A DNA stretch of 64,000 nucleotides from Negativicutes bacterium (GTDB lineage: Bacteria; Bacillota; Negativicutes; UBA1444). Positions 29,773 to 48,828 of the stretch are shown in pieces (the stretch's first letter is position 1; each line of letters starts with the position of its first letter). A model generated the notes under the pieces. The model was not told where the DNA came from. It did not search any database and worked only from the letters and a program-made list of their open reading frames with translations. The DNA is taken from the NCBI GenBank assembly GCA_963665275.2, contig CAXXIN010000014.1, forward strand, positions 32,001 through 96,000, read 5' to 3'. The position numbers and the translations under genes were made by a program.

Positions 29773-30282
29773 CCAAGAAGAAAATCATTGGCTAAATGAA
29801 AATGACTGGCTGGAACAACTTCAGCTGGTCGTTTCGTTTCAGAACACCTGAGCAATGTATTCAAAGATGGCCGATTAGCGTCAGGCGGCAGAGTGATCCG
29901 GAAATTCCGGATAACTGCGTCTGACGTCAACGAGCCGCTGGCCGAGTTCCTGAGGACGGGACACTCGCGGGGGAGACCATCGAGCTAAAGGAAGCTGAAG
30001 AAGAATAGCATAACTGTGCGGGCTACAAATAAGTAGCCTGCTTTTTTTGTCTAAGTAGTATTTGATGGCAGGATTACGAAAGGTTTTCGGGAATCGATTG
30101 AACGAGTACCCGAAATTGCAAGTTGAGTATTTTTCCCACATTGGCTGATGAGAGTGACAGACGATTCCGCTTATTCTACTAATGGGTACAAAAAGTAATA
30201 AAGAATTTTATTTTTAGTATTGTAAATACTAAAAATAAAATGTATGATGTCATCAGATGGTCGATCATGGAGGAAATGGAAA

Positions 30283-31893
30283 ATGAATGCGAAAGCATTA
30301 GAATCTTTTGTCCAATTGTTATACATACGAAACATGGTGGATCGGGAGCAGATCTTGTTGGAAGCTGTTCGAGTCGTTCGGACTTTTCAACAGCTGCACA
30401 ACCGACAAGAAACCATTTCCGACACACCGGAAGATAAAGAACTCTTGTTTGCTGAAATGCAAAGTGTTTCGGAGTCTTCCGAATTGGGACACTTTCCCGG
30501 TGATCGGGAATTTTTCTACAACCTCTTTGCGGTTGCATGTGAACTCGACCTGATAGAGTTGCTGGTCAAGTCCGGCCGAAACGACCGCACAGGAATGCTG
30601 GCGCCCGCGTATCTGGTCGAATATTTGGCCGGTGGGATTACAAAAGACACCGCCCGGGTTTTCGTGGCAGAAGCTGAAAAATTTGCCGAAGGTCTGCAAA
30701 AATTAATAGCAGAGAATCCCAAAGTGGAATTTACATTAACGACGGAAAAGAAAATACATTATCTCCTCCTGGTAACGGCTTTTTCACAAAACCATAATGT
30801 CCGGATACTGAATCAATCGATTTATCGTGAACTGTTACATAAAGACAGCTATGATTTATTGCTCACCATTCCATCGTTTGGCAATCGTTATAACTCGGAG
30901 GAATCCAACAATAATTTTATCACTCGAGACTCGGAATGCATCGCCGTGGAAAACCTCCTCCGCCATCTTGGCGAGCGCGGAAAACTGGCCGCAGTGTTGC
31001 CTGCCAAAGTAACCTTCGCCAGCGGTCCGGTTCAGGAGTTTAGACAATGGATCATGGCCGACTATCACCTGGAAGCCATATACTCTCTGCCAGAAGGAAT
31101 CTTCCGGCCCTATGCTGGCATCAAGACGTATTTAATGGTTTTTGACGCAAAAACGACGATAGGGGTTACAGTCGGCAAAATAATCGATGAGGACTATAGA
31201 CTGCTAGTCAAACAAAAGCAATGGATTTCCGACGTAGAATTCAACGGGCACGAAGATTGGCGGACAGAAATATATCTCGCCGATGATAACGAAGCCATCC
31301 AGAAGTTTAAAACCTCCGGTCTCGAAAAAATCAAACTCAAGGATGTGGCAGAAATCTTCCGGGGCAAGTCCGTGCTCAAAGATGATCTGCAGCCAGGAAA
31401 AATAAGAGTCCTGAATATATCCAACATGGACGAAGGCGAACTCATCTTCGACGAAATGGACACCATCCACGAAGAAATTCGCAAGGTGAAACGGTATCAA
31501 CTGGAATCTGGCGATATCGTGCTAACCTGTCGGGGGACATCAAACAAAGTCGCCGTCTTCCCGGAAACAGAGCATGTGGTCATTGCCTCGGCAAACATCA
31601 TCGTGCTGCGTATCAAAGAAAAGATCGCGCCTCAATATCTGAAAATATTCCTGGATAGTCCGATCGGACAAATGATGATCAAGAGTTTTCAACGGGGAAC
31701 CACGATGATGAACATCAACCCCAACGACATCGGCGAAATGGAGATTCCGCTGCTGCCCATGGAAAGACAACAAAGTCTCGTTCGGCAGTTTCTGGCAGAA
31801 CAGGAACGATATCGGCGGGAAAAAGCGGAAATTGAACAGCGATGGGAAAAAGAACGCTCGGAACTATACAATAATTTTGTAAGGGGATGCTAA
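30283..31893 (+). CDS. Degenerate N6-MTase domain fused to a single HsdS-like TRD
   Basis: MTase-like core ([19 protein letters not shown]) with TIPSF in place of NPPF; C-terminal [31 protein letters not shown]. Confidence 0.75.
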
Positions 31894-31894
31894 G

Positions 31895-33433
31895 ATGGCG
31901 GAGAATGCGAATGGTGCAACACTTGGCTTTGAAGAAAAACTGTGGCAGGCTGCGGACAAAATGCGCAACAATATGGATGCGGCCGAATACAAACATGTTG
32001 TATTGGGCCTACTGTTTTTGAAATACATTTCCGACGCATTCGAAGAAAAATACGAAGAGTTGAACAAGGATGCACTGTCTGATCCAGAAGACCGAGACGA
32101 ATATACGGCAGTAAATATTTTCTGGGTCGCCAAAGAAGCCCGCTGGAACTTTATCAAGGAAAGTGCAAAAAGCCCGAAAATCGGTCAGATCATCGATGAA
32201 GCCATGGTGGCCATCGAGAAAGATAATTCCAATCTCAAAGGGGTACTGCCAAAAGATTATGCCCGGTCCACGCTGGACAAAACCCGGCTGGGTGAACTGA
32301 TCGATATTCTTTCCTTCAATATAGGGGATAAGGAGAGCCGGTCGCAGGATATCTTGGGCCGAGTCTACGAATACTTCCTCTCCAAATTTGCAAGCGCCGA
32401 AGGTAAAAACGGCGGTGAATTTTATACGCCGCAGTGCGTAGTAAAACTGCTGGTGGAAATGATCGAGCCGATGAAAGGGAGAATCTATGACCCCTGCTGC
32501 GGATCAGGCGGCATGTTCGTGCAAAGCGAGCGCTTCCTGAGTGCGCATAGTGGCAAGCGCGGCGATATTTCGGTATACGGGCAGGAATCCAATCCCACGA
32601 CCTGGCGGCTGTGCAAGATGAATCTGGCCATTCGAGGCATCGATGGCAAGCTCGGCGACTACAATGCCGATTCCTTCCATAATGACCTGCACAAAAGTCT
32701 GAAGGCGGACTATATCCTGGCGAATCCCCCCTTCAACATCAGCGACTGGGGCGGCGCGAAACTGACCGAGGATGTCCGCTGGAGCGGCTACGGCATACCG
32801 CCGGCCGGTAACGCAAACTACGCCTGGATTCTGCACATGCTCTGGCATTTGGCTCCCAGCGGCATTGCTGGATTTGTCCTGGCCAACGGTTCCATGTCGA
32901 CGTCAACGACGAGTGAAGGTGAAATCCGAAAACAGTTGGTGGAAAAGGACAACGTCGACTGCATCGTGACCCTGCCGGGGCAGCTGTTCTATTCGACGCA
33001 GATTCCGGTATGTCTGTGGTTTGTGACCAAGAATAAGGCGGCGAAGGGACACCGCAGCCGCAATGGCGAAATCCTGTTCATCGACGCGCGGAAACTGGGC
33101 ACCATGGCGGACCGGACCCATAAGGAATTTTATGACGAGGATATTAAAAAGATTGCCGATACCTACCATTCCTGGCGCGGTGAAGAAGGGACCGGAGAGT
33201 ATGCGGATGTCAAAGGTTTCTGCAAAGCAGCGAAGCTGGAAGAAGTCCGGGAACACGAATATATCCTGACGCCGGGGCGATATGTGGGGATCGAAGACGT
33301 GGAGGAAGACGCCGAGCCGTTCGAGGAGAAGATGACGCGCCTGACGGGGGAATTGGCCGAGATGTTTGCCAAGTCGCGGCATTTGGAAGGCGAGATTCGG
33401 CAGCGGCTGGGGGCGATCGGGTATGAGTTCTGA
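31895..33433 (+). CDS. hsdM: Type I RM methyltransferase subunit
   Basis: [23 protein letters not shown]. Confidence 0.96.
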
Positions 33434-33456: not shown

Positions 33457-34671
33457 GTGATTATGTTGAATGAAAAAAACACGGTGTGGAAAGACACGGT
33501 GCTTGGTATATTTATTTCCATTCAACGGGGTCATGATCTGCCAGAGCAAAACCGCAATAGTGGTGAAATTCCAATAATCGGATCCTTCGGAATTACTGGC
33601 TTTCATAATAAATCCATAGCTCAAGGTCCCGGAGTAACTATTGGTCGAAGTGGCGCGTCCATGGGTGTTGTGTCTTATTCCGACAAAAATTATTGGCCGC
33701 TAAATACCGTTTTATATGTCACAGATTTCCATGATAATGATCCTAAATTCGTTTATTACCGCTTAAAAACGATTGATTTTACAATATATAATTCTGGCAG
33801 TGCGCAACCATCATTAAATCGAAATTATATATATTCGGTTCCATTATGCATTCCAAATAAAAACGAGCAACGTGCCATCGCAGCCACCCTCTCCGCCCTC
33901 GACGACAAAATCGAAATCAACAACCGCATCAACAAAACCTTGGAAGAAATGGCCCAGGCCCTCTTCAAGCGATGGTTCGTCGATTTCGAGTTTCCGGACG
34001 AAAATGGCTTGCCGTACAAGTCCTCCGGCGGGGAGATGGAAGAGAGCGGACTGGGGCCGATTCCGAAGGGGTGGAAGGTTGAATCACTCGATAGTATCGC
34101 GGATTATTTAAATGGACTTGCTATGCAAAAATATCGACCTGAAGGCGAAGAGTTTTTACCTGTTATTAAGATTCGTGAACTCAATCAAGGGAAACCTGAT
34201 GGACAAAGCGATAAAGCCAGCCCCAATATTGATTCTAAGTACATTGTTAATGATGGTGATGTTTTATTTTCATGGTCGGGAAGCCTAGATGTGAAAATAT
34301 GGTGCGGAGGTAAAGGCGGTTTAAACCAACATTTGTTTAAAGTGACATCTGATCGATATGAAAAATGGTTTTACTATTTGTGGACCAAGCACCATCTTGA
34401 AAAATTTCGCGGAATTGCACAGGATAAAGCAACTACCATGGGACACATACAAAGAAAACACCTTAAAGAATCTTTGGTAGATGTTCCTGCGCAAGATGTT
34501 TTGGGGAAAATTAATTCGATAATGCGGCCGATTTTTGACCTTTATATCACAAGAGAAATTGAAGCAGCGACCTTGGTGGCAATAAGAGACACCCTATTAC
34601 CCAAACTTATCAGTGGCGAAATCCGTATGGATAGCTCATTTGCGGAGGACATCGGTAATGGAGAAAGTTAG
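33457..34671 (+). CDS. hsdS: Type I RM specificity subunit
   Basis: Two TRDs; EQRAIAATLSALDDKIE central region; RDTLLPKLISGEI. Confidence 0.95.
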   Translation: MIMLNEKNTVWKDTVLGIFISIQRGHDLPEQNRNSGEIPIIGSFGITGFHNKSIAQGPGVTIGRSGASMGVVSYSDKNYWPLNTVLYVTDFHDNDPKFVYYRLKTIDFTIYNSGSAQPSLNRNYIYSVPLCIPNKNEQRAIAATLSALDDKIEINNRINKTLEEMAQALFKRWFVDFEFPDENGLPYKSSGGEMEESGLGPIPKGWKVESLDSIADYLNGLAMQKYRPEGEEFLPVIKIRELNQGKPDGQSDKASPNIDSKYIVNDGDVLFSWSGSLDVKIWCGGKGGLNQHLFKVTSDRYEKWFYYLWTKHHLEKFRGIAQDKATTMGHIQRKHLKESLVDVPAQDVLGKINSIMRPIFDLYITREIEAATLVAIRDTLLPKLISGEIRMDSSFAEDIGNGES

Positions 34672-35935
34672 AATTGAATCAATTGGTGATTTCGTGGAAA
34701 TATTAAGCGGTCTCCGAACACTCTTGGCGGAAGAAGGCAACGACAAAATTGCTTTCTTCCGGGGGCAAAAAAATTCCGGCTGGGAAGAGATTTATCCGAG
34801 TGTCTTTCGCGCCCCATATTTGATGGCTGAAAATGAATTATATTACAATCTGTCGATGAAATGCCCAGAAGCAATACCAGCTAATTTTTCGATTATAGAT
34901 AAACTGGTGCTTATGCAGCATTATGGATTACCCACGCGACTTCTTGATGTTACAACCAATCCTTTAGTCGCTTTATTCTTCGCTTGCCAGAAAAACACCG
35001 AACGAGTACCAGCGTCTGAGAACTGTGAAATGAGTCATGAAGGCTGCTTTCGGGAAATCGAAACAGACGGAGAAATCCTTGTTTTACGTGATTATCGTCC
35101 TCAACAAACCGGATTTGAGAGAGCAAGCGTTATTGCTGCATTGGCAGAAATTAATTATCAGTTTACCCTGGGCGAGTTAAAAATGATCATAGATCGGCGA
35201 GGGTTAGGGACGTATTCAATATCAAGTTTGTCCGATATGTTGCAGCAAAGCTTGCCAATAAACACAAGAATGAATAACGAAAGAATTAAGAGACAATCAG
35301 GAGCGTTTATTATTTGCGGAACGCATCTGAATTTTGAAGATACTAACTCTGACGATTCTGTGGCGGTGAAGAAAGCAATTAATTTGCGGACCCGATTTGA
35401 ACAAGACGCTGGGGTACGCTACGTGGTTGCGTGGGATAAGAAAGAGCAAATATTGGAAGAGCTTGATTTCATAGGAATCAATGAATCCTTCCTTTATCCG
35501 GAAATAGAGTATCAGTCCAAGTATATTAGAGAGCATCAAATAAGGAATATCCAGTTTGATAGCGGGATCGATGGCGCTGAGCGAACGAAATTAGCAGAAG
35601 AGCTAGAAGAAGTGAATTTATATGTATCGCCTGAAAACCTTGAACGTTTTGCAGAAAGAGCGAAGATAGAAATACTTCTTATATTACAAGGCGTTGAGCA
35701 GAAAGAAATAATAACAGATTATATTGGCGAGATACTAAGAAACAACTTGGATGTGGATTGGATAAATAGAGAGGCCAGCAAGGCCAAAATTGCAGTAGCG
35801 ATTAAGCGCGTATTCAGGGAACACACAACGCTCGATTTTGTTCGAGTGAAAAAACTTATAGATGACATTCTTTTAATTGTTGAAGATTGCTATCATAAAT
35901 GCGCAGCTTCACAGGAGGTACCTGAAAATGTTTGA
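34658..35935 (+). CDS. FRG domain protein with HsdR-like C-terminal segment
   Basis: FFRGQ, PSVFR, MQHYGLPTRLLDVTTNPLVALFFAC, RIKRQSGAF. Confidence 0.9.
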   Translation: MEKVRIESIGDFVEILSGLRTLLAEEGNDKIAFFRGQKNSGWEEIYPSVFRAPYLMAENELYYNLSMKCPEAIPANFSIIDKLVLMQHYGLPTRLLDVTTNPLVALFFACQKNTERVPASENCEMSHEGCFREIETDGEILVLRDYRPQQTGFERASVIAALAEINYQFTLGELKMIIDRRGLGTYSISSLSDMLQQSLPINTRMNNERIKRQSGAFIICGTHLNFEDTNSDDSVAVKKAINLRTRFEQDAGVRYVVAWDKKEQILEELDFIGINESFLYPEIEYQSKYIREHQIRNIQFDSGIDGAERTKLAEELEEVNLYVSPENLERFAERAKIEILLILQGVEQKEIITDYIGEILRNNLDVDWINREASKAKIAVAIKRVFREHTTLDFVRVKKLIDDILLIVEDCYHKCAASQEVPENV

Positions 35936-36642
35936 AAAAATTGATCAGAACAAGGCTCGCATTGACGCGCTGCGTCCGATGCAGGGCAGCTTGCTCACAC
36001 AGATTCGAGACTATTACAAAATCGGCCTGACCTACTCCAGCAATGCGCTCGAAGGCAACTCCCTCACGGAAACGGAACCAAAGTTTTGTTGGAGGACGGC
36101 CTGACTGTCGGCGGCAAGCCGATCAGGGACTACTACGAGGCGACGGGTCACGCCAAGGCCTATGACTATATCTATACGCTCATGCAAGGCGAAGAACTGG
36201 GCGAAGTGCAGCTGAAAACCATCCACCGTCTGTTTTATTCCCTGATTGATGAAGCGCAGGCCGGGCAGTACCGCAAAGAAAGGGTCATTATCTCTGGGTC
36301 GAAGTATCCGGTGCCGCACCGGAGAAGGTCCAAGCACTCATGAACGGTTTTTTTCACTGGTTGTCTACGCAGGAAAAGCTGATGCATCCGGTGGAATTCG
36401 CCGCGAAGGCGCACAAGGAATTTGTCTTTATCCATCCTTTTGTGGACGGTAACGGCCGGGTGGCGCGGCTGCTGATGAATCTTTGCCTGTTGCGGCAGGG
36501 GTACACGATGGCGATCATTCCGCCGGTTCTGCGAGGCGACTACATCGCTCTGCTGGAAAAAGCGCATGAGGACGACACCGCCTTTGTGAACTTCATTGCC
36601 GAACGGGTGGAAGAAACGCAGAAGGATTTGCTGCGGCTTTAA
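35928..36642 (+). pseudogene. Fic family protein with two frameshifts
   Basis: Three consecutive frames carry TYSSNALEGN, the central region, and HPFVDGNGRVARL; single-base deletions near 36079 and 36317. Confidence 0.8.
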
Positions 36643-36693
36643 AATAGCGGGGTCTTCTGGACAGGGTCTGATTTTGTTGGGGGGGTGCGATTC

Positions 36694-39600
36694 GTGACGG
36701 CGTATAATTTCAATGAATCCGAATTGGAGCAGGCGGTGCTGGAGTGCTTCCAGGAACTCTATTACGACATTCAGCAGGGACCGGAGATTTCACCGGGCGG
36801 TGCTTATCCGAACGGGACGACTACAACCTGGTGATTCTGCAAGACCGTCTCATGAATGCGCTCCGGCGAATCAATCCGAAAATGCCGACGGAAGCATTGG
36901 AGGACGCCTATCGCCAGGTCGTCATCGCCAAAAGCCCCAGCCTGATTGTGAATAATAAGGAGTTCTATCGCCTTATCACCGACGGAGTCAACGTAGAAGT
37001 CCGGCGGGCGGATGGATCCATCAAGACGGACAAGGTGTGGTTGTTCGATTTTTCGGATGAAGGAACGGACAATAACGATTGGCTGGCCGTCAACCAATAC
37101 ACCGTGATTGAAAATCATAACCATCGCCGGCCTGATGTGATCGTTTTCATCAATGGGATTCCGCTGGCGGTGATTGAATTGAAGAGCACCTCCGATGAAA
37201 ATGTGGGGGTTACCGAAGCCTTCCGGCAGTTTGAGACCTATAAAAACGAAATTCCCTCTCTGTTCATCTACAATTCATTTCTGGTGATCAGTGATGGCGT
37301 GAATGCAAAAGCGGGAACCCTGACCGCCAATGAAGATTGGTTCATGCCCTGGCGGACCATCGATGGCGTGGAGGTTGCCCCAACAGCGCTGCCGCAGCTG
37401 GAAGTGCTGATCAAGGGAATGTTTGATAAGCAACATTTCCTCGACATTATCAAGAACTTTATCCTGTTCCAGACCGACGGCAAGGAAATCTTCAAGATTC
37501 TGGCCGGCTACCATCAGTATCATGCGGTCAAGAAAGCAGTGACTTGCACCGAACGGGCCACCACGGAAGGCGGCGACCGGCGCATCGGTGTCATTTGGCA
37601 TACCCAGGGATCAGGCAAAAGCTATTCGATGGTGTTCTATGCCGGTCAACTGATCATGACCATGAACAACCCGACCATTATTGTGGTCACCGACCGGAAC
37701 GACCTCGACGAGCAGATCTACTCTACATTCAGCCGCTCCGAGGAATTTTTGCGCCAGTCTCCGGTCCAGGCCCTCAATCGGGCTGAGTTGCGGCAAATGC
37801 TCAAAGAGCGTCAGGCGGGCGGAATCATTTTTACTACCATCCAGAAATTCTCGCCGGGCGAGGATGGCGATACTGAACCGCTGCTGAATGACCGGCGCAA
37901 CATTGTGGTGATCGCTGACGAAGCCCATCGCTCCCAATACGGATTTGATGCTAAAGTGTCTGCCGGCGACCAGGGGGCGGCTGTGAAATACGGCTATGCC
38001 CGCTATCTGCGCGAGGCCATTCCCAATGCCTCGTTCATCGGATTCACCGGCACACCGGTGGAACTCACGGATAAGAACACTCCCGCCGTATTTGGCGATT
38101 ATATTGATATCTATGACATGACGCGGGCCGTGCAAGACGGTACTACCGTGAAAATCTTCTACGAAAGCCGCATTGCCAAGCTCGACCTGCCAGAATCAGA
38201 ACGTCCGAAGATTGACTCGGAGTTTGAAGAGATCACGGAATTTCAGGAAGAATCCTACAAAGAAAAGCAAAAAAGCAAATGGTCCCGTTTGGAGGCCATT
38301 GTCGGTGCAGAAAATCGTGTGCAAAAGATTGCCGAAGATATCGTCGAACACTATGAAAAAAGGCAGGCTGCTGCCTTTGGCAAAGCCATGGTGGTATCCA
38401 TGTCCAGGCGCATTGCGGTGGATCTGTACAACGCGATTGTTGCGCTGCGCCCCGAGTGGCACAGTGATAGCGATAATGAAGGCGTCATTAAAATTGTCAT
38501 GACCGGTTCTGCCTCCGATCCACAGGACTGGCAGAAGCACATCGGCCACAAAGCCCGCCGTAAACTGCTGGCGAAACGTATGAAAGATGAGAAGGACCCG
38601 CTAAAAATCGTCATCGTGCGGGATATGTGGCTAACTGGCTTTGACGTGCCGTCTATGTACACCATGTATGTTGACAAGCCGATGTCCGGACATAATCTGA
38701 TGCAGGCCATTGCCCGGGTCAATCGGGTGTTCAAGGATAAGCCGGGCGGCTTGGTCGTAGATTACATCGGCATCGCCGATAATCTGAAAAACGCCTTGTC
38801 GCAATACACCGTTTCCGACAGGGAGAATACCGGCGTGGATGTGGACCAGGCCGTAGACCTGATGAAAGAAAAATACTCACTGGTACGCGATTTGCTGCAT
38901 GGTTTCGACTACAGCAAGTTCAAGACCGGGACCGCATCAGAACGGATGAAGGCGATCGTGGCCTGCATCGATTTTGTGTTGGGACTGGGCGAAAACGGCA
39001 AGAAAGAATTCCTGAACTATGTCACGGAGTTGGCCAGGGCGTATGCGCTTTGCTCGACAACTGATGAAGCTGAGGAGCTGAATGTGGAGACTGGTTTCTT
39101 CAAGGCCGTAAAGGTGGGGATCATCAAACTGATTCCGGCCGGAGGGCCCAAGAAGACCAAAGCGCAGATCGAAGCACAGTTGAACCAGTTGATCGGCAAG
39201 TCGATCATTTCGGAAGAGGTCGTCGACATTCTCAGCGTTGTGGGCCTTGATAAACCCAATATCGGCATTTTATCCGATGAATTCCTGGAGGAAGTCCGGG
39301 GGTTGCCGCAAAAGAATCTGGCCGTAGAACTGCTGAGGCGGCTGATCGCCGGCAAGGTGAAGTCGGTCTCGCGCAGCAACCTGATCCAGTCGAAGAAGTT
39401 CTCGGAAATGCTGGAGAATGCGCTGAAAAAGTACCAGAACCGTTCCATCGAAACGACCCAGGTCATTATGGAACTGATCGAACTGGCCAAGCAAATGAAT
39501 GAGATGCAAAAACGGGGCGAGTCGGTCGGGCTGTCCTCGGATGAACTGGCTTTCTACGACGCGCTGGGGTCGAGTGATGCCGCCGTCATGATTATGGGCG

Positions 39601-39884
39601 ATGATATTTTGAAGCAGATTGCCCGCGATCTGACCACGACCATTAAAAACAACCTGGGCGTCGACTGGGCCATTCGTGAAACTGTGCGCGCCCAAATGCG
39701 CCTGACGGTGAAGAAGCTGCTCAAGAAATACGGCTATCCGCCGGACAAGCAGGAAGCTGCGGTGAAGACGGTCATGGAGCAGGCTGAGCTGATGTGCGGG
39801 AACGAATTGGAATATGAAACGGAATACCCGGAAAAGTCCCACCATGAATTTCCGCTGGCGGCGGACGGGAAAGGCGCGTGCTAA
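36694..39884 (+). CDS. hsdR: Type I RM restriction subunit (one frameshift near 36810)
   Basis: [14 protein letters not shown]-terminus in another frame joins ORF 36744-39884; [38 protein letters not shown]. Confidence 0.92.
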
Positions 39885-39932: not shown

Positions 39933-40931
39933 TTGGCAAGTAACGTAAACACAGCGTTTGCAGAGTTTTTGAAAAACACTGTGAATCTGGATGCAAATGA
40001 AACAAATACGGCGAGAAATAGTCGTGATTGGTTGGTTGGGAAGATACACGGTTTTGGGGGCAAGGACATGTTCCCTGTGCTTTACAATGAGAAGGATATT
40101 TTCTTTGGCTCTTTTGCTAGAAAAACAAAAATTCGCGAACTTGACGATATTGATATTATGATATGTTTGAGTGCTCTGGGGAGTACTTATAATCCCTATC
40201 AAGCTGGAAGTATTGAAATCACTGTGCCTGAATCGGCTGAAGCGCTGTATTGCCTATGCCACGATTACACTGACAAGTTGAATTCTAGAAAAGTAATAAA
40301 TAAAGTAATTTCAAAGCTAAGCAGTGTGCCGCAATATAAAAAAGCAGAAATAAGCAGGAACCAAGAGGCGGCTATACTAAATTTGCAGACCTATACTTGG
40401 AGTTTTGATATTATTCCTTGTTTTTTTACCTCCCCAGATCAATATTGCCGAACCTATTACTTGATTCCAGATGGTAGCGGCAATTGGCAGAAGACTGATC
40501 CGCGAATTGATAGTGATCATGTCTCGTCATTAAACCAGAAGCACAACGGTTATGCATTGAATTTAATAAGAATCGTCAAGTATTGGAATCGAAGACCAAC
40601 GATGCCATCGATGCAATCATATCTACTGGAATGTATGCTGCTGAATCATTTGGAAGGTTCGACCCAATGTTCGGATTATATTGACATTGCGTTTAGGGAT
40701 GCATTGGCTTACATATATTCTGCAATTTATAATAGCGTTCAAGATCCAAAAGGTATCCAGGGGGATCTCAACAATTTGCCAACTGAGGAAAGAAAAAAAA
40801 TATCCGATAGGGCGGCGATGGACTACAATAAGGCAATTGACGCAGGGACTTATGAAGGAAAAGGAGACCATAAATCGGCAATTAACAAGTGGAGGGAAAT
40901 TTTTGGCGATCAATTCCCGCCATATACATAA
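39933..40931 (+). CDS. SMODS/CD-NTase nucleotidyltransferase 1
   Basis: FGSFARKT....DDIDI, FDIIP, TDPR, IVKYWN, WREIFGDQFP. Confidence 0.85.
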   Translation: MASNVNTAFAEFLKNTVNLDANETNTARNSRDWLVGKIHGFGGKDMFPVLYNEKDIFFGSFARKTKIRELDDIDIMICLSALGSTYNPYQAGSIEITVPESAEALYCLCHDYTDKLNSRKVINKVISKLSSVPQYKKAEISRNQEAAILNLQTYTWSFDIIPCFFTSPDQYCRTYYLIPDGSGNWQKTDPRIDSDHVSSLNQKHNGYALNLIRIVKYWNRRPTMPSMQSYLLECMLLNHLEGSTQCSDYIDIAFRDALAYIYSAIYNSVQDPKGIQGDLNNLPTEERKKISDRAAMDYNKAIDAGTYEGKGDHKSAINKWREIFGDQFPPYT

Positions 40932-40989
40932 GACTCATTTAAGAAAATATCTGCTCATAGCAACTGCTGATTTTTCAGGAGGGATATTC

Positions 40990-41856
40990 TTGGCGACAAC
41001 AATTGCCCAATCTTTTGTGGGATTTAAATCCAACCTTGAGATTACGGGGTTACAGGCAGAAACCATTTCAACGCGACAAAATAATGTTCGAGATGCTGTC
41101 AAAAGAGACTTTGATGTTTTGGACTCGTTTTTAACTGGATCATATGCCAGAAGCACAATGATAGCGCCGTTAAATCAAGCGGATGTCGATATATTTACAG
41201 TTTTGAAAACGGAACACTATCGATCAGACGGGCAAGCATACTTGCTGGATAAGGTGAAAAATACATTAATAAAAACATATCCGAAATCACCCAAAGTCAG
41301 CAGAAATGGACAAGCTGTTACAATTACATTCACTGATTTTACAGTTGATCTTATTCCTGCATTTTATAGGAAGGGCGGCGGCTATTTGATTCCCAATACA
41401 ATTACTAGCAGTTGGATTGCCACTGATCCCAAACAGCATATTTCAATCTCAAGTGAGCAAAATAAAAACCACAATGGAATGTTGATACCATTGGTGAAAA
41501 TGATCAAATGCTGGAATAAGAGCATGAATTATTGGTTTGGTTCATTTCATCTAGAGGTAATGGCTCAACAAATACTCAAAAAGGTTATAATCAGTGATTA
41601 TCCGTCCGGGGTTAGGTTCTTTTTCGATAAGGGCAGGGATACAGTTGGAAAGAAAACCCCTGATCCAGCTGGCTATAACGACGATGTGGGTTGCAACATT
41701 AATACAAAGGCGAAAATTGATGAAGCCGCTAGTAAATTTACGACTGCTTACACTCGGGCAAGCAAGGCGGAATCATTTGCGCGAGACGGGAATATACCAA
41801 GTGCGGTTGAAGAATGGAGAAAAATTTTCGGCAATCAATTTCCGGCATTTGGATAA
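40990..41856 (+). CDS. SMODS/CD-NTase nucleotidyltransferase 2
   Basis: TTG start after GGAGG; LTGSYARST.....ADVDI, VDLIP, TDPK, MIKCWN, SFHLE, WRKIFGNQFP. Confidence 0.88.
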   Translation: MATTIAQSFVGFKSNLEITGLQAETISTRQNNVRDAVKRDFDVLDSFLTGSYARSTMIAPLNQADVDIFTVLKTEHYRSDGQAYLLDKVKNTLIKTYPKSPKVSRNGQAVTITFTDFTVDLIPAFYRKGGGYLIPNTITSSWIATDPKQHISISSEQNKNHNGMLIPLVKMIKCWNKSMNYWFGSFHLEVMAQQILKKVIISDYPSGVRFFFDKGRDTVGKKTPDPAGYNDDVGCNINTKAKIDEAASKFTTAYTRASKAESFARDGNIPSAVEEWRKIFGNQFPAFG

Positions 41857-41868
41857 GGGGGGGCTTGT

Positions 41869-42744
41869 ATGATAGGCGATCAAAATTCACCTGAAAATTT
41901 ACGACTTCTTGCGGCCCAGCGGCAGATATATATTGATGCAAAGTCATATGGAAAGTTTAGATTTTGGGGGTCGTTGGCATTTGCGGTGGTTGGGCCACTT
42001 GCTGCAGCGTATTGTGCTGGTGCTAGCATTTGGGTGCTGCTTTTGAGCAGTATTGCATGGCCCATTATGGTTGAAATATTTAAAGTAAGACAAAAAACTT
42101 TGACCTCACGAGCTGCTACCATACAGGAAGAGTTTGATGTGAATATGTTCGGGCTGCCATGGAATCATATTTTGGTTGGAAACAAAATAGCTAAGGAAAT
42201 TATAATTGAAGCGGATCGTCAATTTAGAGGTGATAAGAAAGACTTACAGAACTGGTATCCTGTTAGTTCACAAGAAAAAGGGCCTTTGGATATTCTTGTG
42301 AAGCAACGTACCAATTTGCTTTGGGATAGGCGATTGCGTATTAAGTACGCGAGGTTGTTAGGACTGGTAATTGCTTCAGTTTTTGTTGTTGAAGTTTGTA
42401 TCTGTATCTATCGAGAAATGAGATTATTAGACTGGCTTATTCAGTATTTTGCTCCATTGATGCCACTGATTTTACTTGGGATTGAAAATATTTTAACTCA
42501 TTATGAAATTGCAGGACAGAAGAAGCAGCTGGAAGACGTTATTATGTCAATTTATGAAAAAATTAATGATGGTTTAGTTGAAATATCCTTCGATAAAGAA
42601 TATCGACAAATTCAAGATGCCATATATTCAACGAGAAGACAAACTGTGTTGGTGCCGGAATTTTGGTCTAATAGGTTAAGTAATTCCTTTCAGAGCAACA
42701 TGATAGAAGCCGCGCGTGAGTATCAAAATCTGAAATTAAAGTAA
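41869..42744 (+). CDS. SMODS-associated 4TM (S-4TM) effector
   Basis: QN...LLAAQRQIY..AK, IQEEFD, NWY, QRTNLLWD..LR, QDAIY..R; four hydrophobic segments. Confidence 0.85.
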   Translation: MIGDQNSPENLRLLAAQRQIYIDAKSYGKFRFWGSLAFAVVGPLAAAYCAGASIWVLLLSSIAWPIMVEIFKVRQKTLTSRAATIQEEFDVNMFGLPWNHILVGNKIAKEIIIEADRQFRGDKKDLQNWYPVSSQEKGPLDILVKQRTNLLWDRRLRIKYARLLGLVIASVFVVEVCICIYREMRLLDWLIQYFAPLMPLILLGIENILTHYEIAGQKKQLEDVIMSIYEKINDGLVEISFDKEYRQIQDAIYSTRRQTVLVPEFWSNRLSNSFQSNMIEAAREYQNLKLK

Positions 42745-42751
42745 TGTTTTC

Positions 42752-42919
42752 CGTACCCCTTGCCCGGCCTTCAGCCCGCCATCAGGTGGGCTTCCGTTTG
42801 CCGCTCCTCGGGCCGCTCTCGTTATCGCCCACGTCACCGTCGCGACCTTCCGAACAATCCTGCCCGCTTTCGCAGAACGCGCCAACATAGTGCTGGTTTC
42901 ATCATAGCGCCGCCACCGC
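42752..42919 (-). repeat. Structured element copy C
   Basis: 42805-42919 matches 45201-45318 in blocks of 20, 14, 18 and 12 bp; 42752-42815 matches the reverse complement of 24065-24134. Confidence 0.85.
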
Positions 42920-43070
42920 CTGTAGATCCGTCCTCGCCTCGATTTGAGCGCGGACTTCGCTATGGCCGCCGGCGGCGCTAAATATATTCGTAACGCTATT
43001 GCGCGAAAAAAGGAAATGGGCCGCTCAAGCAGAAACAAATATTGATCGAAGAAAAAGCATGGAGGGACAA

Positions 43071-44768
43071 ATGGAAGTAGCCATGTTGCAAAACATGATC
43101 TCCGCCGGTGAACAGTTGTCGGTTGAGTTTAAATCAGACCGTAGCGGTTCCCGGGGTGAGCATATGCTGGGAGAAGAAACGATCTTGAGCGAAGCGGTGG
43201 CGTTGGCCAACTCCGGTGGCGGCTATTTGCTCATTGGGGTGGAAGATGATGGCAAGGTAACCGGCTTGAATTCTCAGCGCAGTGACCAGCGTCCGGAAGC
43301 CTTGCAGGCATTCATTTTTAATAAAACGCAGCCACCGATTTCGACTGAAACCGAAGTCGTTTCCCATGCGGATGGGAGTGTGATGGTGGTTCGGGTGCTT
43401 TCGATGCATGGCGTGGTTTATGCTACAATGTCTGGCAAAATGCTGCGCCGCGAAATGACTGCGCAAGGACCGGAGACTCGGATAATGTACCCTTATCAGG
43501 TGATCAGCCTGCTTTCACAACAACGGCAGATCGATTACTCGGAACAGATCCTGCATGATTTGGACTGGACGGCACTCGATCCGCTGGAACTCGAACGGGC
43601 GAAGCAAATGGTGGAACGAAATGCGGGTCGCAGCGATGCTTCGCTGGTGGGGCTGGATGCGGTTGAATTGGCCAAGGCGCTGGGGCTGGTTGTGACGGAT
43701 GGCAGCGTTTTGCGTCCCACCATTGCAGGACTACTGGTTGCAGGGCGGGAGGCGGTCTTGCGCCGGTACTTGCCAATGCATCACGTGCTTTTTCAGCGGA
43801 TCGATGAACGGGATGAAGTGCGGATAAACGATTCCTTCCGACAGGCGCTTCTCTCGACCCTGGACGCGGTTGAACAGCGGTTTGCCGCTCAAAATCAGGA
43901 ACAAGAGGTCATGGTGGGCTTGTTTCGACTGTCAATTCCTGATTATTCACAGATGGGCTTTCGTGAGGCCTTGCTGAACGCGATAGTTCATCGTGATTAT
44001 GCGGTCCGGGGCGAAGTTTTTATCCAGTGGCGACCGGATCATTTATTGATTACGAATCCGGGTGGCTTCATGCCAGGAATTACTTTGGAAAACCTTATAT
44101 ACCATGAGCCGTTGTCGCGCAACCCTTTGTTGGTCGATATTTTCAAGCGACTGGGACTGGTGGAACGGACGGCTCGGGGAGTGGATCGGATTTTTCAGGG
44201 TCAATTGCGGTTTGGGAGACCGGCGCCAGACTATTCGCGTTCGGATGCTTCCGGTGTGCGGGTGCTGTTGCCTGGCGGCAGGCCTTCGCTGGAGTTTGCC
44301 CGACTGGTGTATCAGGAAGAAAAAGCAATGGGAAAAACACTGCCGCTGGACCAGCTGATGGCATTAAACCACTTGTTTTTCTGCCGACGCACAGATGCAG
44401 AAACCTTGGCTAAGGCGATCCATCGAGATGTGAACGCGGCGCGGGCTTTGCTGGAGAATTTGGTGGAACAAGGCTGGGTGGAAGCTTCCGGCAATAAAAA
44501 AGGCCGCACTTATCACTTCGCAGCCAAAGTCTATGCTGCGGAGGGTAATCCGGCGGGATACGTGCGGGCGGCCGGGCTGGATCCTGAGGAACAGGAACAA
44601 CGGGTACGAAAATTTGTTAAGGCGCATGGGAGAATAGAGAGGAAGAACGTGATGGATCTTTGCAAGGTGGATGCGTCGGATGCTTTCCGAATTCTTCAAC
44701 GGCTTGTTAGCGCTGGCGAAATCGTCTTGGTAGGCAAAGGACGCAGTGCCTACTATCGAAAAAAATAG
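43071..44768 (+). CDS. AlbA_2/Schlafen domain, HATPase-like (RecG-C type) and wHTH protein
   Basis: VEFKSD, ALANSGGGYLLIGVEDDG, REALLNAIVHRDY, NPGG, RNP, C-terminal HTHs. Confidence 0.88.
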   Translation: MEVAMLQNMISAGEQLSVEFKSDRSGSRGEHMLGEETILSEAVALANSGGGYLLIGVEDDGKVTGLNSQRSDQRPEALQAFIFNKTQPPISTETEVVSHADGSVMVVRVLSMHGVVYATMSGKMLRREMTAQGPETRIMYPYQVISLLSQQRQIDYSEQILHDLDWTALDPLELERAKQMVERNAGRSDASLVGLDAVELAKALGLVVTDGSVLRPTIAGLLVAGREAVLRRYLPMHHVLFQRIDERDEVRINDSFRQALLSTLDAVEQRFAAQNQEQEVMVGLFRLSIPDYSQMGFREALLNAIVHRDYAVRGEVFIQWRPDHLLITNPGGFMPGITLENLIYHEPLSRNPLLVDIFKRLGLVERTARGVDRIFQGQLRFGRPAPDYSRSDASGVRVLLPGGRPSLEFARLVYQEEKAMGKTLPLDQLMALNHLFFCRRTDAETLAKAIHRDVNAARALLENLVEQGWVEASGNKKGRTYHFAAKVYAAEGNPAGYVRAAGLDPEEQEQRVRKFVKAHGRIERKNVMDLCKVDASDAFRILQRLVSAGEIVLVGKGRSAYYRKK

Positions 44769-46470: not shown

Positions 46471-46992
46471 TATGCGGAAATGCTACGCATTTTTGGTAAT
46501 CGTGCTGTGGGTTTGTCTCTGCTTCGGTAGGCGGGGGACTAGTGGTGAGCGTTTTGAAATTTTTCCAATGGACAGGATGGCCGCCATCCTGTCCAGGGCG
46601 GGAATAGGGAAAACGGCGAAATTGTAAAAAGGTCGAGAAAAAACGTCTTCGCAGGATGCGTTTTAAAGCCTGTTAGAAAGTTTGCATGGGGTCGACCTAG
46701 TGGCCCCAGTTTCTTTTTTCGTAGCCTGCAAAAAAAATGGAGTTTGTTCGCTTTTAAGGGAGCTATTTATCGAACCTACATGCGCAAATATATGTTCGAT
46801 ATAGTAAGGCCAAACAGTGGGAAAATGATGCGTTGAATTCCCTTTGTGTTTGAGAAGACTTGCAGGATATTTGGATTATTATAGGAATTATTACTAAGTA
46901 CGGGAGGTATATGAGTGTAAGAGATGCGAAGACTGACCGCATCGTCAAACTTTAATAGATTGTTGAATTTTACAGGGAGGAACAATGACATT

Positions 46993-48828
46993 ATGAGGAT
47001 AACAAAAATCAATATACCTGAAATCGAATTCCAAGAAGATGGGCTCGGAACTATTATCATGGATCGACTTGGTGACACGGTGCTGATCGCTGGACGGAAC
47101 GGATCGGGGAAAACAAGACTATTAAATAGGATAAGATACTGTATCACCAATCGACCTGATTCCAATGAAATTATGAATTTGGAGAATAATCTCAGGTCTT
47201 GGATTAAGGCACTGGAAAATCAGCCGGACGATCCAAATGCTATGCAATGGAAAAATGCAATTGAAAATAACAAAAAGAGACTTTGTCTTATTGACTATAT
47301 AACCTTTTCAGAAGAAGCAGAAAAGTATATTGTTGTTGATTTTGTACCTAAAAAACTAGAGTTGGCCGATAGCGGAGCGTTGCCTCTCAATACCTTGATT
47401 GAACGCGCGAATAATTTGTCTCAAATAGGCGTTAGTAACCTTGCAGATGGTGCATTTGCGAGAATTCAATTTGAGCAGAACGCATACTGGCAGGTAACCC
47501 ATCCTGAATATACTATTGAGGAAGTCGAAAGAAATAGAATCATCGAATCGTACAAAGCTCTTTAACAATTGATAAAATCTCTTATGGGGTGTGATCTAAC
47601 TCGTTCACCTGAGGGTATCGCTCAGATATTCGGTTTTCCTTTGGGAAAAGCTAATTTATCAGATGGACAAAAAGTGTTATTGCAATTATGCGTAGCTATT
47701 CATTCTCAAGGAGCGTCTTTGAACAGTTTAATATTATTGATGGATGAGCCTGAAAACCACTTGCATCCATCATTATTGATAGAAGTAATAGATAAAATAC
47801 GAGAACAGGTTACAGAGGGTCAATTATGGATAGCGACACATTCTCTTACGCTATTGTCTCATCTGGATACATCTTGTATATGGTATATGGATGATAACAA
47901 AATTGGCTACTCTGGAAGACAACCTGAAAAAGTACTGCGAGGTCTACTCGGCAATGAGATTCAGATTAGTAGGTTTGCTGATTTCCTGAGCTTGCCTGCA
48001 CATTTTGCAGCTAACCGCTTCGCTTATGAATCGCTATTCCAGCCAAGCGCAACGCAAACTGACATCGGAGATGCTCAAACCTCGCAAATTACAGGTGAAT
48101 TAAGAAGGTATAAGCCCGGCGAAAGTATTAGAGTGATTGATTATGGTGCGGGTAAAGGTCGGCTGGCCGATGCCGTTTTTTACTCAGATAGCTTAGAGGA
48201 CAAAAATTCAATTTCAAATTGGTTCGATTATATTGCGTTTGATGCCTTTGCTGAAGATAAATGCTACTGCGAAATGGCCATTCAAAGAATATATGGGACA
48301 TCAGAAAATCGATATTTTAATGACGAGTATCAAGTGTTGGGGCGCTTTGGCGAAAATAGTGTTGACGTTGTTGTCATGTGTAATGTATTGCATGAAATCC
48401 CACCTACTGATTGGCTCAGACTGTTTTCAACAGAGGAATTAATCGTGAAGTGTCTAAAAAACGATGGCGTAGTGCTTCTTGTTGAAGATCTTCTGTTGCC
48501 AGTTGGTGAAAAGCCACATCGAAATGGATTTTGTGTTTTAGGGTTGTCTCAAGTAAAAGCCTTATTCCAGATTGAAGAGAACTGTGAAGGGTTTCGTTAT
48601 GCAGATGCAAGGGGAGATAATAGGCTTGTAGCATATCAGATCCCTAAATCTCATTTATCGAGAATAAGTAGTAACTCCCGTAAAAATGCACTTCAGGGCA
48701 TAGCAGCGCAGGCTAAATCGGAAATAAGAAGACTTAGATCTGCAGAAGCCAGTTATAAAAACGGGAAATTACTTGGATTTTGGGTACAACAGTTTGCAAA
48801 TGCACAATTGTGTTTGGAGGAGATATGA
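46993..48828 (+). pseudogene. ABC-type (AAA_15/21-like) ATPase fused to class I SAM methyltransferase, with in-frame TAA at 47563-47565
   Basis: GRNGSGKT in ORF1; LSDGQ, LMDEPENHLHP, IATHS, IDYGAGKGR and CNVLHEI in ORF2; both ORFs in the same frame. Confidence 0.75.

What the first reader, a model, noticed from the sequence alone, without database searches (positions are those of the whole stretch)
34658..35935. FRG protein embedded in the type I RM operon ends in an HsdR-like C-terminal segment: candidate RM-docked guard effector
Seen: the FRG protein tail LRNNLDVDWINREASKAKIAVAIKRVFREH (~35735-35824) aligns without gaps to the neighbouring HsdR tail [30 protein letters not shown] (~39642-39731), with 10 of 30 identical and many conservative changes. 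The gene overlaps the hsdS stop and lies between hsdS and hsdR. Known: the HsdR C-terminal region is implicated in binding the methyltransferase core, and PrrC occupies the same operon position and acts as a backup when its RM enzyme is inhibited. Inference: this FRG protein may dock on M2S through an HsdR-like tail and act as an abortive-infection sensor or effector. I know of no description of this fusion.
Basis: partly seen in the sequence, partly recalled or inferred. Interest (0 to 1): 0.8.

Follow-up and report, generated by a model that had tools for sequence, protein, structure and literature searches.

The report
Restriction-operon effector with HsdR-like docking tail
A predicted NAD-targeting defence protein encoded inside a type I restriction-modification operon ends in a small helical module copied from the restriction subunit HsdR, which probably plugs it into the methyltransferase core of the same enzyme.

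Summary
The 425-aa FRG protein (34658-35935) has an FRG/ART-like core (1-295), a disordered linker (296-319) and a four-helix tail (325-415). The core motif of the tail (about 352-397) is homologous to the most conserved C-terminal motif of HsdR: BLASTP E 1e-4, Pfam PF11867 E 1.9e-4, hhalign E 6.3e-7, and HMM hits in both directions.

The family is already catalogued as the untested PADLOC candidate PDC-S15. I found no paper describing the HsdR-like tail.

New evidence for docking:
- All 18 tail-bearing FRG genes in 79 classified loci (17 type A including the divergent L009, plus the frame-split L005; 2 type B) sit hsdS-FRG-hsdR. None of 45 FRG genes outside restriction loci has the tail.
- In a second, unrelated HsdR family (Vibrionaceae), FRG proteins carry a different tail. 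It matches the end of their own HsdR (36% over 85 aa, E 3e-14).
- A predicted complex places the shared motif on the HsdM N-terminal domain (ipSAE 0.77, best control 0.00).

Against: 16 tail-less FRG genes occupy the same operon position, and binding and activity are untested.

Verdict: a new variant of the PrrC-type embedded effector. Interest is high.

The parts
31895..33433 (+). hsdM (512 aa), the predicted docking partner. The predicted interface residues are 61-63, 66-69, 71-74 (HsdM_N domain) and 113, 194-196, 222-226, 250, 252.
   Evidence: Pfam N6_Mtase E 1.9e-113 and HsdM_N E 4.4e-26. Interface. D66, D68 and Y70 are invariant in 21 HsdM sequences.
33457..34671 (+). hsdS (404 aa). Its stop codon is overlapped by the FRG start.
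   Evidence: Pfam Methylase_S E 1.2e-28, two stretches. Sequence.
34658..35542 (+). FRG protein, N-terminal FRG/ART-like core (residues 1-295).
   Evidence: Pfam FRG E 7.8e-18, 65.6 bits against a cut-off of 25. PADLOC PDC-S15 E 2.5e-74. pLDDT is mostly 80-98. Weak ART-toxin fold matches: TreTu Z 5.5, TreX Z 5.4, cholera toxin A1 Z 4.5.
35543..35614 (+). Flexible linker (residues 296-319).
   Evidence: pLDDT below 50 for 296-319. Lowest column conservation, 0.29.
35615..35935 (+). C-terminal four-helix tail (residues 320-425, helices 325-342, 349-363, 372-389, 394-415) plus the stop codon.
   Evidence: pLDDT about 95. Tail HMM and context analysis.
35711..35848 (+). HsdR-like motif inside the tail (residues 352-397: helix, DW loop, helix). 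It is also the predicted HsdM-contacting surface.
   Evidence: hhalign E 6.3e-7. D367 is invariant and W368 is kept in 96% of 55 sequences. Interface residues 365-368, 370-374, 376-377, 379-380, 383-384, 387-388, 394.
35928..36642 (+). Second embedded gene, Fic/DOC family. It reads in three frames in the window.
   Evidence: Pfam Fic E 3.7e-14; PADLOC SoFic and PDC-S04. Frames. Contigs of public runs differ by single bases at the break points.
36695..39884 (+). hsdR. The first ~37 codons are in another frame in the window; the main ORF runs from 36744.
   Evidence: Pfam HSDR_N, SWI2_SNF2, T1R_D3-like, and T1RH-like_C E 6.1e-128. N-terminus. Single-base difference at 36807 in the contigs of three runs.
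39618..39752 (+). Conserved C-terminal motif of HsdR (residues 959-1003), the counterpart of the FRG tail motif.
   Evidence: hhalign. N970, D974, W975, E979, R982, A983, M985, R986 and K990 are invariant in 29 HsdR sequences.

Best explanation
The gene encodes a two-module accessory effector of the type I restriction-modification enzyme. An FRG domain is joined by a flexible ~25-residue linker to a four-helix tail. The FRG domain is assigned in the literature to the ADP-ribosyltransferase superfamily and predicted to be an NADase or ADP-ribosylating effector.

The helix-loop-helix core of the tail descends from the conserved N-x3-D-W-x3-E-x3-A-x-M-R motif near the C-terminus of HsdR. The tail tethers the effector to HsdM, at the acidic loop 61-74 of the HsdM N-terminal domain plus nearby catalytic-domain residues. 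This is most likely the site that HsdR's own motif uses.

The enzyme core M2S would therefore carry either HsdR or the FRG effector. I think the most likely logic is PrrC-like. The docked effector stays latent while the complex is normal. It is set off when a phage disables or distorts the restriction complex. It then consumes NAD+ or ADP-ribosylates a target and aborts the infection.

Status of each step:
- Shown: the domain layout, the homology of the motif, the restriction of tail-bearing forms to type I loci, and an independent matching tail in a second HsdR family.
- Predicted: binding to HsdM.
- Inferred: the use of HsdR's site, latency, the trigger, and the chemistry.
For: Homology of the tail to HsdR is given under the observation check. 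A profile of 17 FRG tails also finds genuine HsdR C-terminal fragments in 1.84 billion representatives. These are P0347, P0362, P0364 and P0371, at E 7.6e-6 to 2.5e-5, with PF11867 E 1e-77 to 3.5e-28.

Selection on the motif.
- Mean column conservation is 0.52 for the motif plus helix 3, against 0.29 for the linker and 0.26-0.36 for the other tail helices. The catalytic core scores 0.59.
- The conserved FRG positions D367, W368, E372, S/A376, M378 and R379 align with the invariant HsdR positions D974, W975, E979, A983, M985 and R986.
- The AF2 helix pattern is the same. FRG has 349-363 / loop / 372-389 / 394-415. The HsdR segment has 259-283 / loop / 292-309 / 314-340.

Genomic context, for 79 classified loci out of the 80 fetched.
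- 15 loci have tail A, 1 has a divergent DW tail and 2 have tail B. All 18 show the order hsdM-hsdS-FRG-hsdR on one strand.
- L005, a frame-split tail A gene beside hsdR, was left out of the count.
- 0 of 45 FRG genes outside restriction loci have the tail.

Independent second case.
- In V. aestuarianus (L063), FRG 288-372 aligns with its own HsdR 979-1061: 31/85 identical, E 3e-14.
- In V. harveyi (L057) the match is 28% over 78 aa, E 4e-9.
- That HsdR family lacks PF11867.
- It is not detectably related to the window's type (hhalign Prob 0.1 and 1.2).
- 9 clusters of such FRG proteins, all Vibrionaceae-type, keep the tail at 58-99% identity.
- On a quick tree the two tail types lie in different FRG clades.

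Predicted complex of HsdM with tail 320-425.
- ipSAE is 0.75, 0.78 and 0.77; the best of 3 controls is 0.00.
- Partner pLDDT is at least 83, and at least 94% of contacts are shared between runs.
- The mark was reached by 116 of 157 solved complexes and 2 of 215 mismatched pairs.
- The interface uses the shared motif and HsdM residues around the invariant D66, D68 and Y70.

Literature.
- PrrC is the precedent (PMC12707154, passages).
- FRG is assigned to the ART superfamily as a possible NADase (PMC9503650, passages).
Against: - 16 tail-less FRG genes (281-307 aa) sit in the same hsdS-FRG-hsdR slot. 14 of them are next to HsdR proteins of the window's type. The tail is therefore not needed for embedding, nor presumably for function.
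- Within the window's HsdR family, tails are no closer to their own HsdR than to others. Over 17 pairs the mean rank is 8.2 against 9 expected, permutation p 0.40.
- The Pfam match is below the gathering score and covers 38 of 329 profile positions.
- No solved structure of this HsdR C-terminal family exists for checking the site. Fold searches show the tail only as a generic helical bundle, Z at most 8.8.
- A distant HsdM-HsdR complex (EcoR124I, 7bst) is solved. Some of the complex score could therefore come from memory.
- The complex score is a model's confidence, not a measurement.
- The ART fold matches are weak (Z 4.5-5.5). No FRG enzyme activity or anti-phage phenotype was found in print.
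Confidence: 0.55

Rival explanations
1. Alternative restriction subunit. The docked FRG domain is not a latent guard. It is a second output arm of the enzyme. M2S recognises unmodified target DNA and the tethered ART-like domain then acts locally, on DNA or on DNA-bound proteins, in place of or beside HsdR.
For: The docking evidence is the same. A flexible linker of about 25 residues would let the catalytic domain reach around the complex. An M2S core has two HsdM subunits and hence two sites (established knowledge, PMC12707154 passages).
Against: All 16 tail A loci that reach far enough also keep a full-length hsdR of at least 1012 aa, so FRG does not replace HsdR. Published computational work favours NADase activity for FRG. 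No DNA-binding or DNA-modifying feature was seen.
Confidence: 0.15
2. Recombination scar. The tail is a leftover piece of an hsdR 3' end, fused in frame when cassettes were swapped between type I operons. It has no docking role today.
For: Earlier notes of this scan describe hsdR 3'-end remnants beside embedded cassettes in other genomes (e1-4107734 and e1-3556506; unchecked AI notes). The hsdS-FRG stretch has lower G+C (0.41-0.42) than hsdM and hsdR (0.51-0.55), as a swapped cassette would. Chimeric ORFs that join HsdM, HsdS or integrase pieces to a tail exist among the representatives.
Against: - There is no nucleotide similarity between the tail DNA and the hsdR 3' end (best blastn E 0.99).
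- The tail is in frame and terminal in every full-length case.
- It is kept across three phyla at about 13-24% identity, while the DW motif stays invariant.
- The motif is much better conserved than the linker.
- It folds with pLDDT about 95.
- A second, unrelated tail type shows the same pattern.
A scar may well be how the tail arose, but it now looks selected.
Confidence: 0.1
3. Assembly regulator. The tail competes with HsdR for HsdM and so tunes or delays restriction, for example after transfer of the operon to a new host. The FRG domain would have an unrelated or secondary role.
For: The predicted site lies on a conserved HsdM surface. Control of HsdR assembly is a known regulatory point in type I systems (PMC12707154 passages). 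Small ~100-aa clusters annotated PF11867 are the nearest look-alikes of the tail in the ESM Atlas (scores 0.90 and 0.89).
Against: A regulator would not need a conserved 295-residue enzyme-like domain. All 34 invariant columns of the family are kept in this protein. The family was picked up as a defence candidate by embedding.
Confidence: 0.1
4. RM-independent module. The helical tail serves self-association or auto-inhibition of the FRG enzyme. Its likeness to HsdR reflects only shared ancestry.
For: Four-helix bundles are common oligomerisation modules. The fold searches give only generic helical matches.
Against: Tail-bearing forms occur only next to an HsdR of the matching family, with two tail types for two HsdR families. 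The conserved face of the motif is the predicted HsdM interface.
Confidence: 0.08

Closest known systems
PrrC anticodon nuclease embedded in the type IC system EcoprrI
   Same: An effector gene lies inside an hsd operon. In PrrC the effector is kept silent by the restriction enzyme and released when a phage inhibits it (PMC12707154 and bioRxiv 10.1101/2024.01.29.577857, passages). The same logic is proposed here.
   Different: The proteins are unrelated: PrrC is an ABC-ATPase plus nuclease, and this is an FRG/ART-like domain. No HsdR-like docking module is described for PrrC in the passages I read. The trigger and activity here are untested.
PADLOC phage defence candidate PDC-S15 (guilt-by-embedding; Payne, Hughes, Fineran, Jackson, bioRxiv 2024)
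   Same: It is the same protein family. Model PDLC04927 matches residues 3-412 at E 2.5e-74. The candidates were chosen because they are embedded in BREX, DISARM or type I loci (abstract and outline).
   Different: It is catalogued as an untested single-gene candidate. The main text has no occurrence of FRG, S15, HsdR or DUF3387. The supplements were not available to me, so I cannot say what they list.
HsdR C-terminal domain, Pfam PF11867 T1RH-like_C (DUF3387)
   Same: The tail motif aligns to profile positions 268-305 and keeps the DW, E and MR positions that are invariant in HsdR.
   Different: Only about 45 of 329 positions are shared, and the score is below the family cut-off. The rest of the HsdR helical domain, and the YPP motif that follows, are absent.
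ART-superfamily NAD+-consuming or ADP-ribosylating defence and toxin domains (RES, DarT, Rhs ART toxins)
   Same: FRG is assigned to this superfamily by published sequence analysis (PMC9503650). The model's core aligns weakly with the ART toxins TreTu and TreX and with cholera toxin A1 (Z 5.5, 5.4 and 4.5).
   Different: No biochemical activity of an FRG domain was found in the papers I searched. The catalytic residues were not mapped here.
   Same: The idea is the same: a four-helix module from the end of HsdR on an effector embedded in a type I operon (unchecked AI note).
   Different: It concerns another genome and another effector family. In my search with the FRG-type tail profile, no other effector family appeared among the 144 newly listed representatives.

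Membership tests
FRG domain (Pfam PF08867) | Match to the family profile above the curated cut-off | tested here: met
   65.6 bits against a cut-off of 25, E 7.8e-18, residues 32-115.
FRG domain (Pfam PF08867) | Conserved F/Y-R-G motif and the other invariant residues of the family | tested here: met
   F34, R35, G36, Q37 and the remaining 30 invariant columns of the 55-sequence alignment are present in this protein.
PADLOC PDC-S15 | Full-length match to a PDC-S15 model | tested here: met
   PDLC04927 E 2.5e-74, residues 3-412 on model positions 12-413 of 422.
PADLOC PDC-S15 | Embedded within a known defence system | tested here: met
   The gene lies between hsdS and hsdR.
PADLOC PDC-S15 | Anti-phage activity | not testable with these tools
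   The family is listed as an untested candidate.
T1RH-like_C / DUF3387 (Pfam PF11867) | Match to the family profile above the curated cut-off, over most of the domain | tested here: not met
   21.4 bits against a cut-off of 26.8; 38 of 329 positions. Motif-level homology is nevertheless supported (hhalign E 6.3e-7).
ADP-ribosyltransferase (ART) superfamily | ART fold of the catalytic core | tested here: inconclusive
   TreTu 8s2n_B Z 5.5, rmsd 3.3, 108 aligned. TreX 8s2m_B Z 5.4. Cholera toxin A1 2a5g_B Z 4.5. Foldseek found nothing at E<=0.001. The core was not folded on its own.
ADP-ribosyltransferase (ART) superfamily | NAD+-binding catalytic residues and NADase or transferase activity | not tested
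   The assignment comes only from PMC9503650.
PrrC-type restriction-linked guard | ABC-ATPase plus anticodon-nuclease domains | tested here: not met
   Only FRG and the weak PF11867 match were found. It is not a member of the PrrC family, but it may work like one.
PrrC-type restriction-linked guard | Gene embedded in the hsd operon | tested here: met
PrrC-type restriction-linked guard | Physical association with the restriction enzyme, and activation when it is inhibited | not testable with these tools
   There is only a predicted complex (ipSAE 0.77 against 0.00).

The most novel reading that the evidence does not exclude
The conserved C-terminal motif of HsdR is a portable docking tag for HsdM. 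FRG effectors have captured the tag of whichever HsdR family they live beside, at least twice independently. The M2S methyltransferase core would then be a shared sensor platform. It can carry either the nuclease-translocase HsdR or an NAD+/ADP-ribosyl effector, which makes FRG an alternative output subunit of type I enzymes. Phages might counter with their own tail mimics.
Probability: 0.3. Interest if true: 0.85.

Novelty: new variant of a known kind. Interest (0 to 1): 0.75.

Why it matters
How defence genes nested in restriction operons talk to the surrounding enzyme is known in outline only for PrrC, and without a structural basis. This locus offers a concrete, testable interface: a ~45-residue HsdR-derived motif with an invariant D-W pair, predicted to bind the acidic loop of the HsdM N-terminal domain.

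The same trick appears with a different tail in a second HsdR family. That argues for function rather than accident. If confirmed, it would do three things:
- explain how at least one widespread candidate family (375 clusters at 50% identity carry the tail) is wired to type I enzymes;
- locate the still unsolved HsdR docking site of the PF11867-type enzymes;
- give a rule for finding other docked effectors, namely to look for the neighbour HsdR's tail on embedded genes.

Tried and rejected
- Foldseek of the whole model against the PDB gave nothing at E<=0.001.
- VIA wide search and second look showed the tail only as a generic four-helix bundle. The best Z was 8.8, to unrelated proteins, and no HsdR appeared.
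- Sequence searches of the PDB found no relative of this HsdR's C-terminus or of the tail profile.
- I searched shorter proteins with HsdR 880-1046, hoping for other effectors with the tail. The 120 listed were HsdR fragments, a few with odd extra Pfam labels.
- The tail profile was run against 1.84 billion representatives. Of the 144 newly listed, 61 have an FRG core, 78 are too short to tell, and 5 have at least 120 non-FRG residues ahead of the tail. Those 5 look like chimeras or HsdR fragments: an integrase N-terminus, DUF4141, an HsdM half and two HsdR pieces. My data therefore show no second effector family with this tail type.
- The locus-specific matching test of tail against its own HsdR within the family was negative (p 0.40).
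- I considered that hsdR and fic are decayed, which would have left M2S free for FRG. I rejected this. Contigs of two near-identical public runs (X1, X2) carry one more base at each of four places (36075, 36316, 36637, 36807). A ~93% relative (X5) does so at three of them. The breaks are therefore most likely errors of the window's assembly.
- Run X23 (raw reads) laid nothing, so it gave no test.
- The careful tree did not finish. The tree cited is the quick one.
Full report
**Locus**

The + strand of the window carries, in order:
- a 549-aa methyltransferase/specificity-like ORF (30244-31893);
- hsdM (31895-33433);
- hsdS (33457-34671);
- the FRG gene (34658-35935);
- a Fic/DOC gene (35928-36642);
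- hsdR (36695-39884);
- a CBASS unit of two CD-NTase genes and an S-4TM effector (39933-42744);
- a Schlafen/AlbA_2 protein (42999-44768).

The FRG ATG at 34658 follows a GGAGGA and overlaps the hsdS stop by 14 nt. G+C is 0.41-0.42 over hsdS and FRG, against 0.51-0.55 over hsdM and hsdR.

In the window, fic reads in three frames and the first ~37 codons of hsdR are out of frame. Contigs of two near-identical public runs (X1 at depth 42, X2 at depth 5, no other differences) carry one extra base at 36075, 36316, 36637 and 36807. A ~93% relative (X5) does so at three of these places. The FRG ORF shows no indel in any of the three. I therefore read the breaks as assembly errors, and all five genes as intact in the organism.

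**Observation**

The match is not chance.
- BLASTP aligns FRG 290-389 with HsdR 894-996 at E 1e-4.
- Pfam places FRG 352-389 on positions 268-305 of PF11867 at E 1.9e-4, below the gathering score.

I took homologues: 2919 proteins at E<=0.001 among 8000 scored candidates, of which 120 were listed. They fall into a long class (78 proteins of 395-455 aa, covering the tail) and a short class (37 proteins of 255-320 aa, without it).

I aligned 55 of the 78 long ones, chosen by eye to thin near-duplicates. D367 is invariant and W368 nearly so.
- 26 of these 55 hit PF11867 on their own at E<=0.01.
- hhalign of this alignment against 29 HsdR C-termini gives Prob 92.1 and E 6.3e-7 over 45 columns.
- An HMM of the FRG tails alone hits 29 of 33 full-length HsdR ORFs, always near residues 942-1025, plus 16 FRG ORFs. 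It hits nothing else among 3199 ORFs of 80 loci.
- The reverse HMM, built from HsdR only, finds the window's FRG first among non-HsdR ORFs (E 1.9e-5).
- In 1.84 billion representatives, a profile of 17 tails also reaches true HsdR C-terminal fragments at E about 1e-5.

**Anatomy**

The AF2 model has mean pLDDT 84.6. It shows a globular core (1-295), a disordered linker (296-319, pLDDT below 50) and four confident helices: 325-342, 349-363, 372-389 and 394-415.

A model of the HsdR C-terminus (pLDDT 72) shows the same pattern: helix, 8-residue DW loop, 18-residue helix, long helix.

Column conservation is 0.59 in the core, 0.29 in the linker, 0.26-0.36 in tail helices 1, 2 and 4, and 0.52 in the motif plus helix 3. 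The conserved FRG positions D367, W368, E372, S/A376, M378 and R379 align with HsdR positions that are invariant in 29 sequences.

Fold searches show the tail only as a generic bundle. They give weak ART-toxin matches for the core: TreTu Z 5.5, TreX Z 5.4 and cholera toxin A1 Z 4.5. This fits the published assignment of FRG to the ART superfamily as a possible NADase (PMC9503650, passages).

**Context in other genomes**

Of 566 confirmed stretches in genome contigs, the best 80 loci were kept. I classified 79 of them. L005 was left out because its FRG gene is split; it has a tail and lies beside hsdR. The classes are:

| Class | Loci |
|---|---|
| Window-type tail (A) | 15 |
| Divergent DW tail | 1 |
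| Second tail type (B) | 2 |
| Tail-less but embedded | 16 |
| No hsd neighbour | 45 (24 with at least 5 kb on both sides) |

Every embedded case has the order hsdM-hsdS-FRG-hsdR on one strand. No FRG gene outside a restriction locus has the tail. So the tail goes with restriction loci, but embedding does not need the tail.

A quick tree was built because the careful search did not finish. It puts the window-type embedded genes on one side of a 97% branch, as a tail-bearing group and a tail-less group. The window itself is a long branch.

**A second, independent tail**

In Vibrio loci L057 and L063 the neighbouring HsdR belongs to another family. It has no PF11867 match, no tail-HMM hit, and hhalign Prob 0.1 against the window's type. 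Their FRG proteins have a different C-terminal extension that aligns with the very end of their own HsdR:
- L063: 31/85 identical, E 3e-14;
- L057: 28% over 78 aa, E 4e-9.

This extension is unrelated to tail A (Prob 1.2). Nine clusters of such proteins, named as Vibrio and Photobacterium where named, keep it at 58-99% identity. On the tree they lie in a separate clade with two tail-less embedded relatives. Two unrelated tails, each matching the resident HsdR family, are hard to explain except by a role tied to what the HsdR end does.

**Docking**

The HsdR C-terminal helical domain is held to mediate assembly with the methyltransferase (PMC5248579, passages).

A predicted complex of HsdM (21-row alignment) with tail residues 320-425 (55 rows) scored ipSAE 0.75, 0.78 and 0.77.
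- The best of three controls scored 0.00.
- Partner pLDDT was at least 83, and at least 94% of contacts were shared between runs.
- The mark was reached by 116 of 157 solved complexes and 2 of 215 mismatches.
- The contacting tail residues are 365-368, 370-374, 376-377, 379-380, 383-384, 387-388 and 394, which is the HsdR-like motif.
- On HsdM they are 61-63, 66-69 and 71-74, around the invariant D66, D68 and Y70, plus 113, 194-196, 222-226, 250 and 252.

The tail and this HsdR C-terminus have no sequence relative in the PDB. A distant HsdM-HsdR complex is solved (7bst), so memory cannot be excluded. The prediction supports binding but does not show it. I could not run HsdR's own tail as a positive control.

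**Mechanism and rivals**

My best reading, at 0.55, is an effector tethered to HsdM through an HsdR-derived tag. It would most likely act as a PrrC-like latent guard that depletes NAD+ or ADP-ribosylates a target when the complex is disturbed.

Rivals are an alternative output subunit (0.15), a recombination scar (0.10), an assembly regulator (0.10) and an RM-independent helical module (0.08).

The scar idea comes from earlier notes of this scan. Several results argue against it as a present-day explanation:
- there is no DNA similarity to the hsdR 3' end;
- the motif is conserved at protein level across three phyla;
- a second tail type shows the same pattern.

A scar may still be how the fusion arose. 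Within the family, tails do not track their own HsdR (p 0.40), so the fusion is old.

**Known or new**

The family is PADLOC PDC-S15. It is one of 145 untested candidates from guilt-by-embedding (bioRxiv 10.1101/2024.01.29.577857; outline and passages).

Other searches found no description of the tail or of FRG activity:
- 'FRG domain' with 'restriction': 8 papers;
- 'PDC-S15': 2 papers;
- 'DUF3387': 3 papers;
- 'Frg'/'ART superfamily'/'restriction-modification': 20 papers;
- 'FRG domain' with 'phage': 5 papers.

For most of these I saw only listings and abstracts.

I could not confirm a second effector family with my own searches.

I rate this a new variant of a known kind: a PrrC-type embedded effector with a newly recognised docking device.

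Noticed in passing
window 35900-36900: The window differs from contigs of near-identical public runs by four single-base gaps (36075, 36316, 36637, 36807). These split the fic-type gene into three frames and put the start of hsdR out of frame. They are probably assembly errors. Other split genes in the window, such as the AAA ATPase pieces at 46924-47565 and 47569-48828, may have the same cause.
   Followed up: partly
window 35928-36642: A second embedded gene, Fic/DOC family (PADLOC SoFic and PDC-S04 models), lies between the FRG gene and hsdR. Its ATG overlaps the end of the FRG gene. No HsdR-like tail was detected on it.
   Followed up: partly
window 30244-31893: A 549-aa ORF abuts hsdM. 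It has a partial N6_Mtase match (residues 190-305) and one Methylase_S domain (359-513), with weak likeness to the MADS MAD5 specificity subunit. It may be a fused methyltransferase-specificity protein or a remnant.
   Followed up: no
window 39933-44768: Directly after hsdR there are two tandem CD-NTase genes (39933-40931 and about 40990-41856) and an S-4TM effector (41869-42744), forming a CBASS unit. A Schlafen AlbA_2/HATPase_c_4 protein follows. The whole 30-45 kb stretch is a defence island flanked by a Bro-N/ANT antirepressor, an amidase and ankyrin-repeat genes.
   Followed up: no
ESM Atlas clusters: The nearest look-alikes of the tail are clusters of ~100-aa proteins partly annotated PF11867: 109 members at score 0.90 and 757 members at score 0.89. 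A 94-aa cluster with 40% viral members scores 0.89. This is a lead to free-standing or phage-borne HsdR-tail mimics that might compete for HsdM.
   Followed up: no
proteins P0246, P0247, P0256, P0257, P0313, P0331, P0341: Some representatives join the tail to pieces of HsdS, to the N-terminal half of HsdM or to an integrase N-terminus. One 625-aa protein reads Methylase_S-FRG-tail. They look like deletion or read-through chimeras within type I loci.
   Followed up: partly
L007, L008, L019: Several tail-bearing loci carry two or three hsdS genes or half-genes between hsdM and the FRG gene. This suggests specificity-shuffling type I systems.
   Followed up: no
L026, L030, L036-L041, L046 and others (27 of the 45 non-RM loci): FRG proteins outside restriction loci are often 400-473 aa because of an N-terminal extension of about 150 residues. 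I did not characterise it.
   Followed up: no
window 33457-35935: hsdS and the FRG gene share a lower G+C (0.41-0.42) than hsdM and hsdR (0.51-0.55). They may have arrived together as one swapped cassette. The window's FRG is a long branch whose nearest relatives are only 63-66% identical (P0003, P0004).
   Followed up: no
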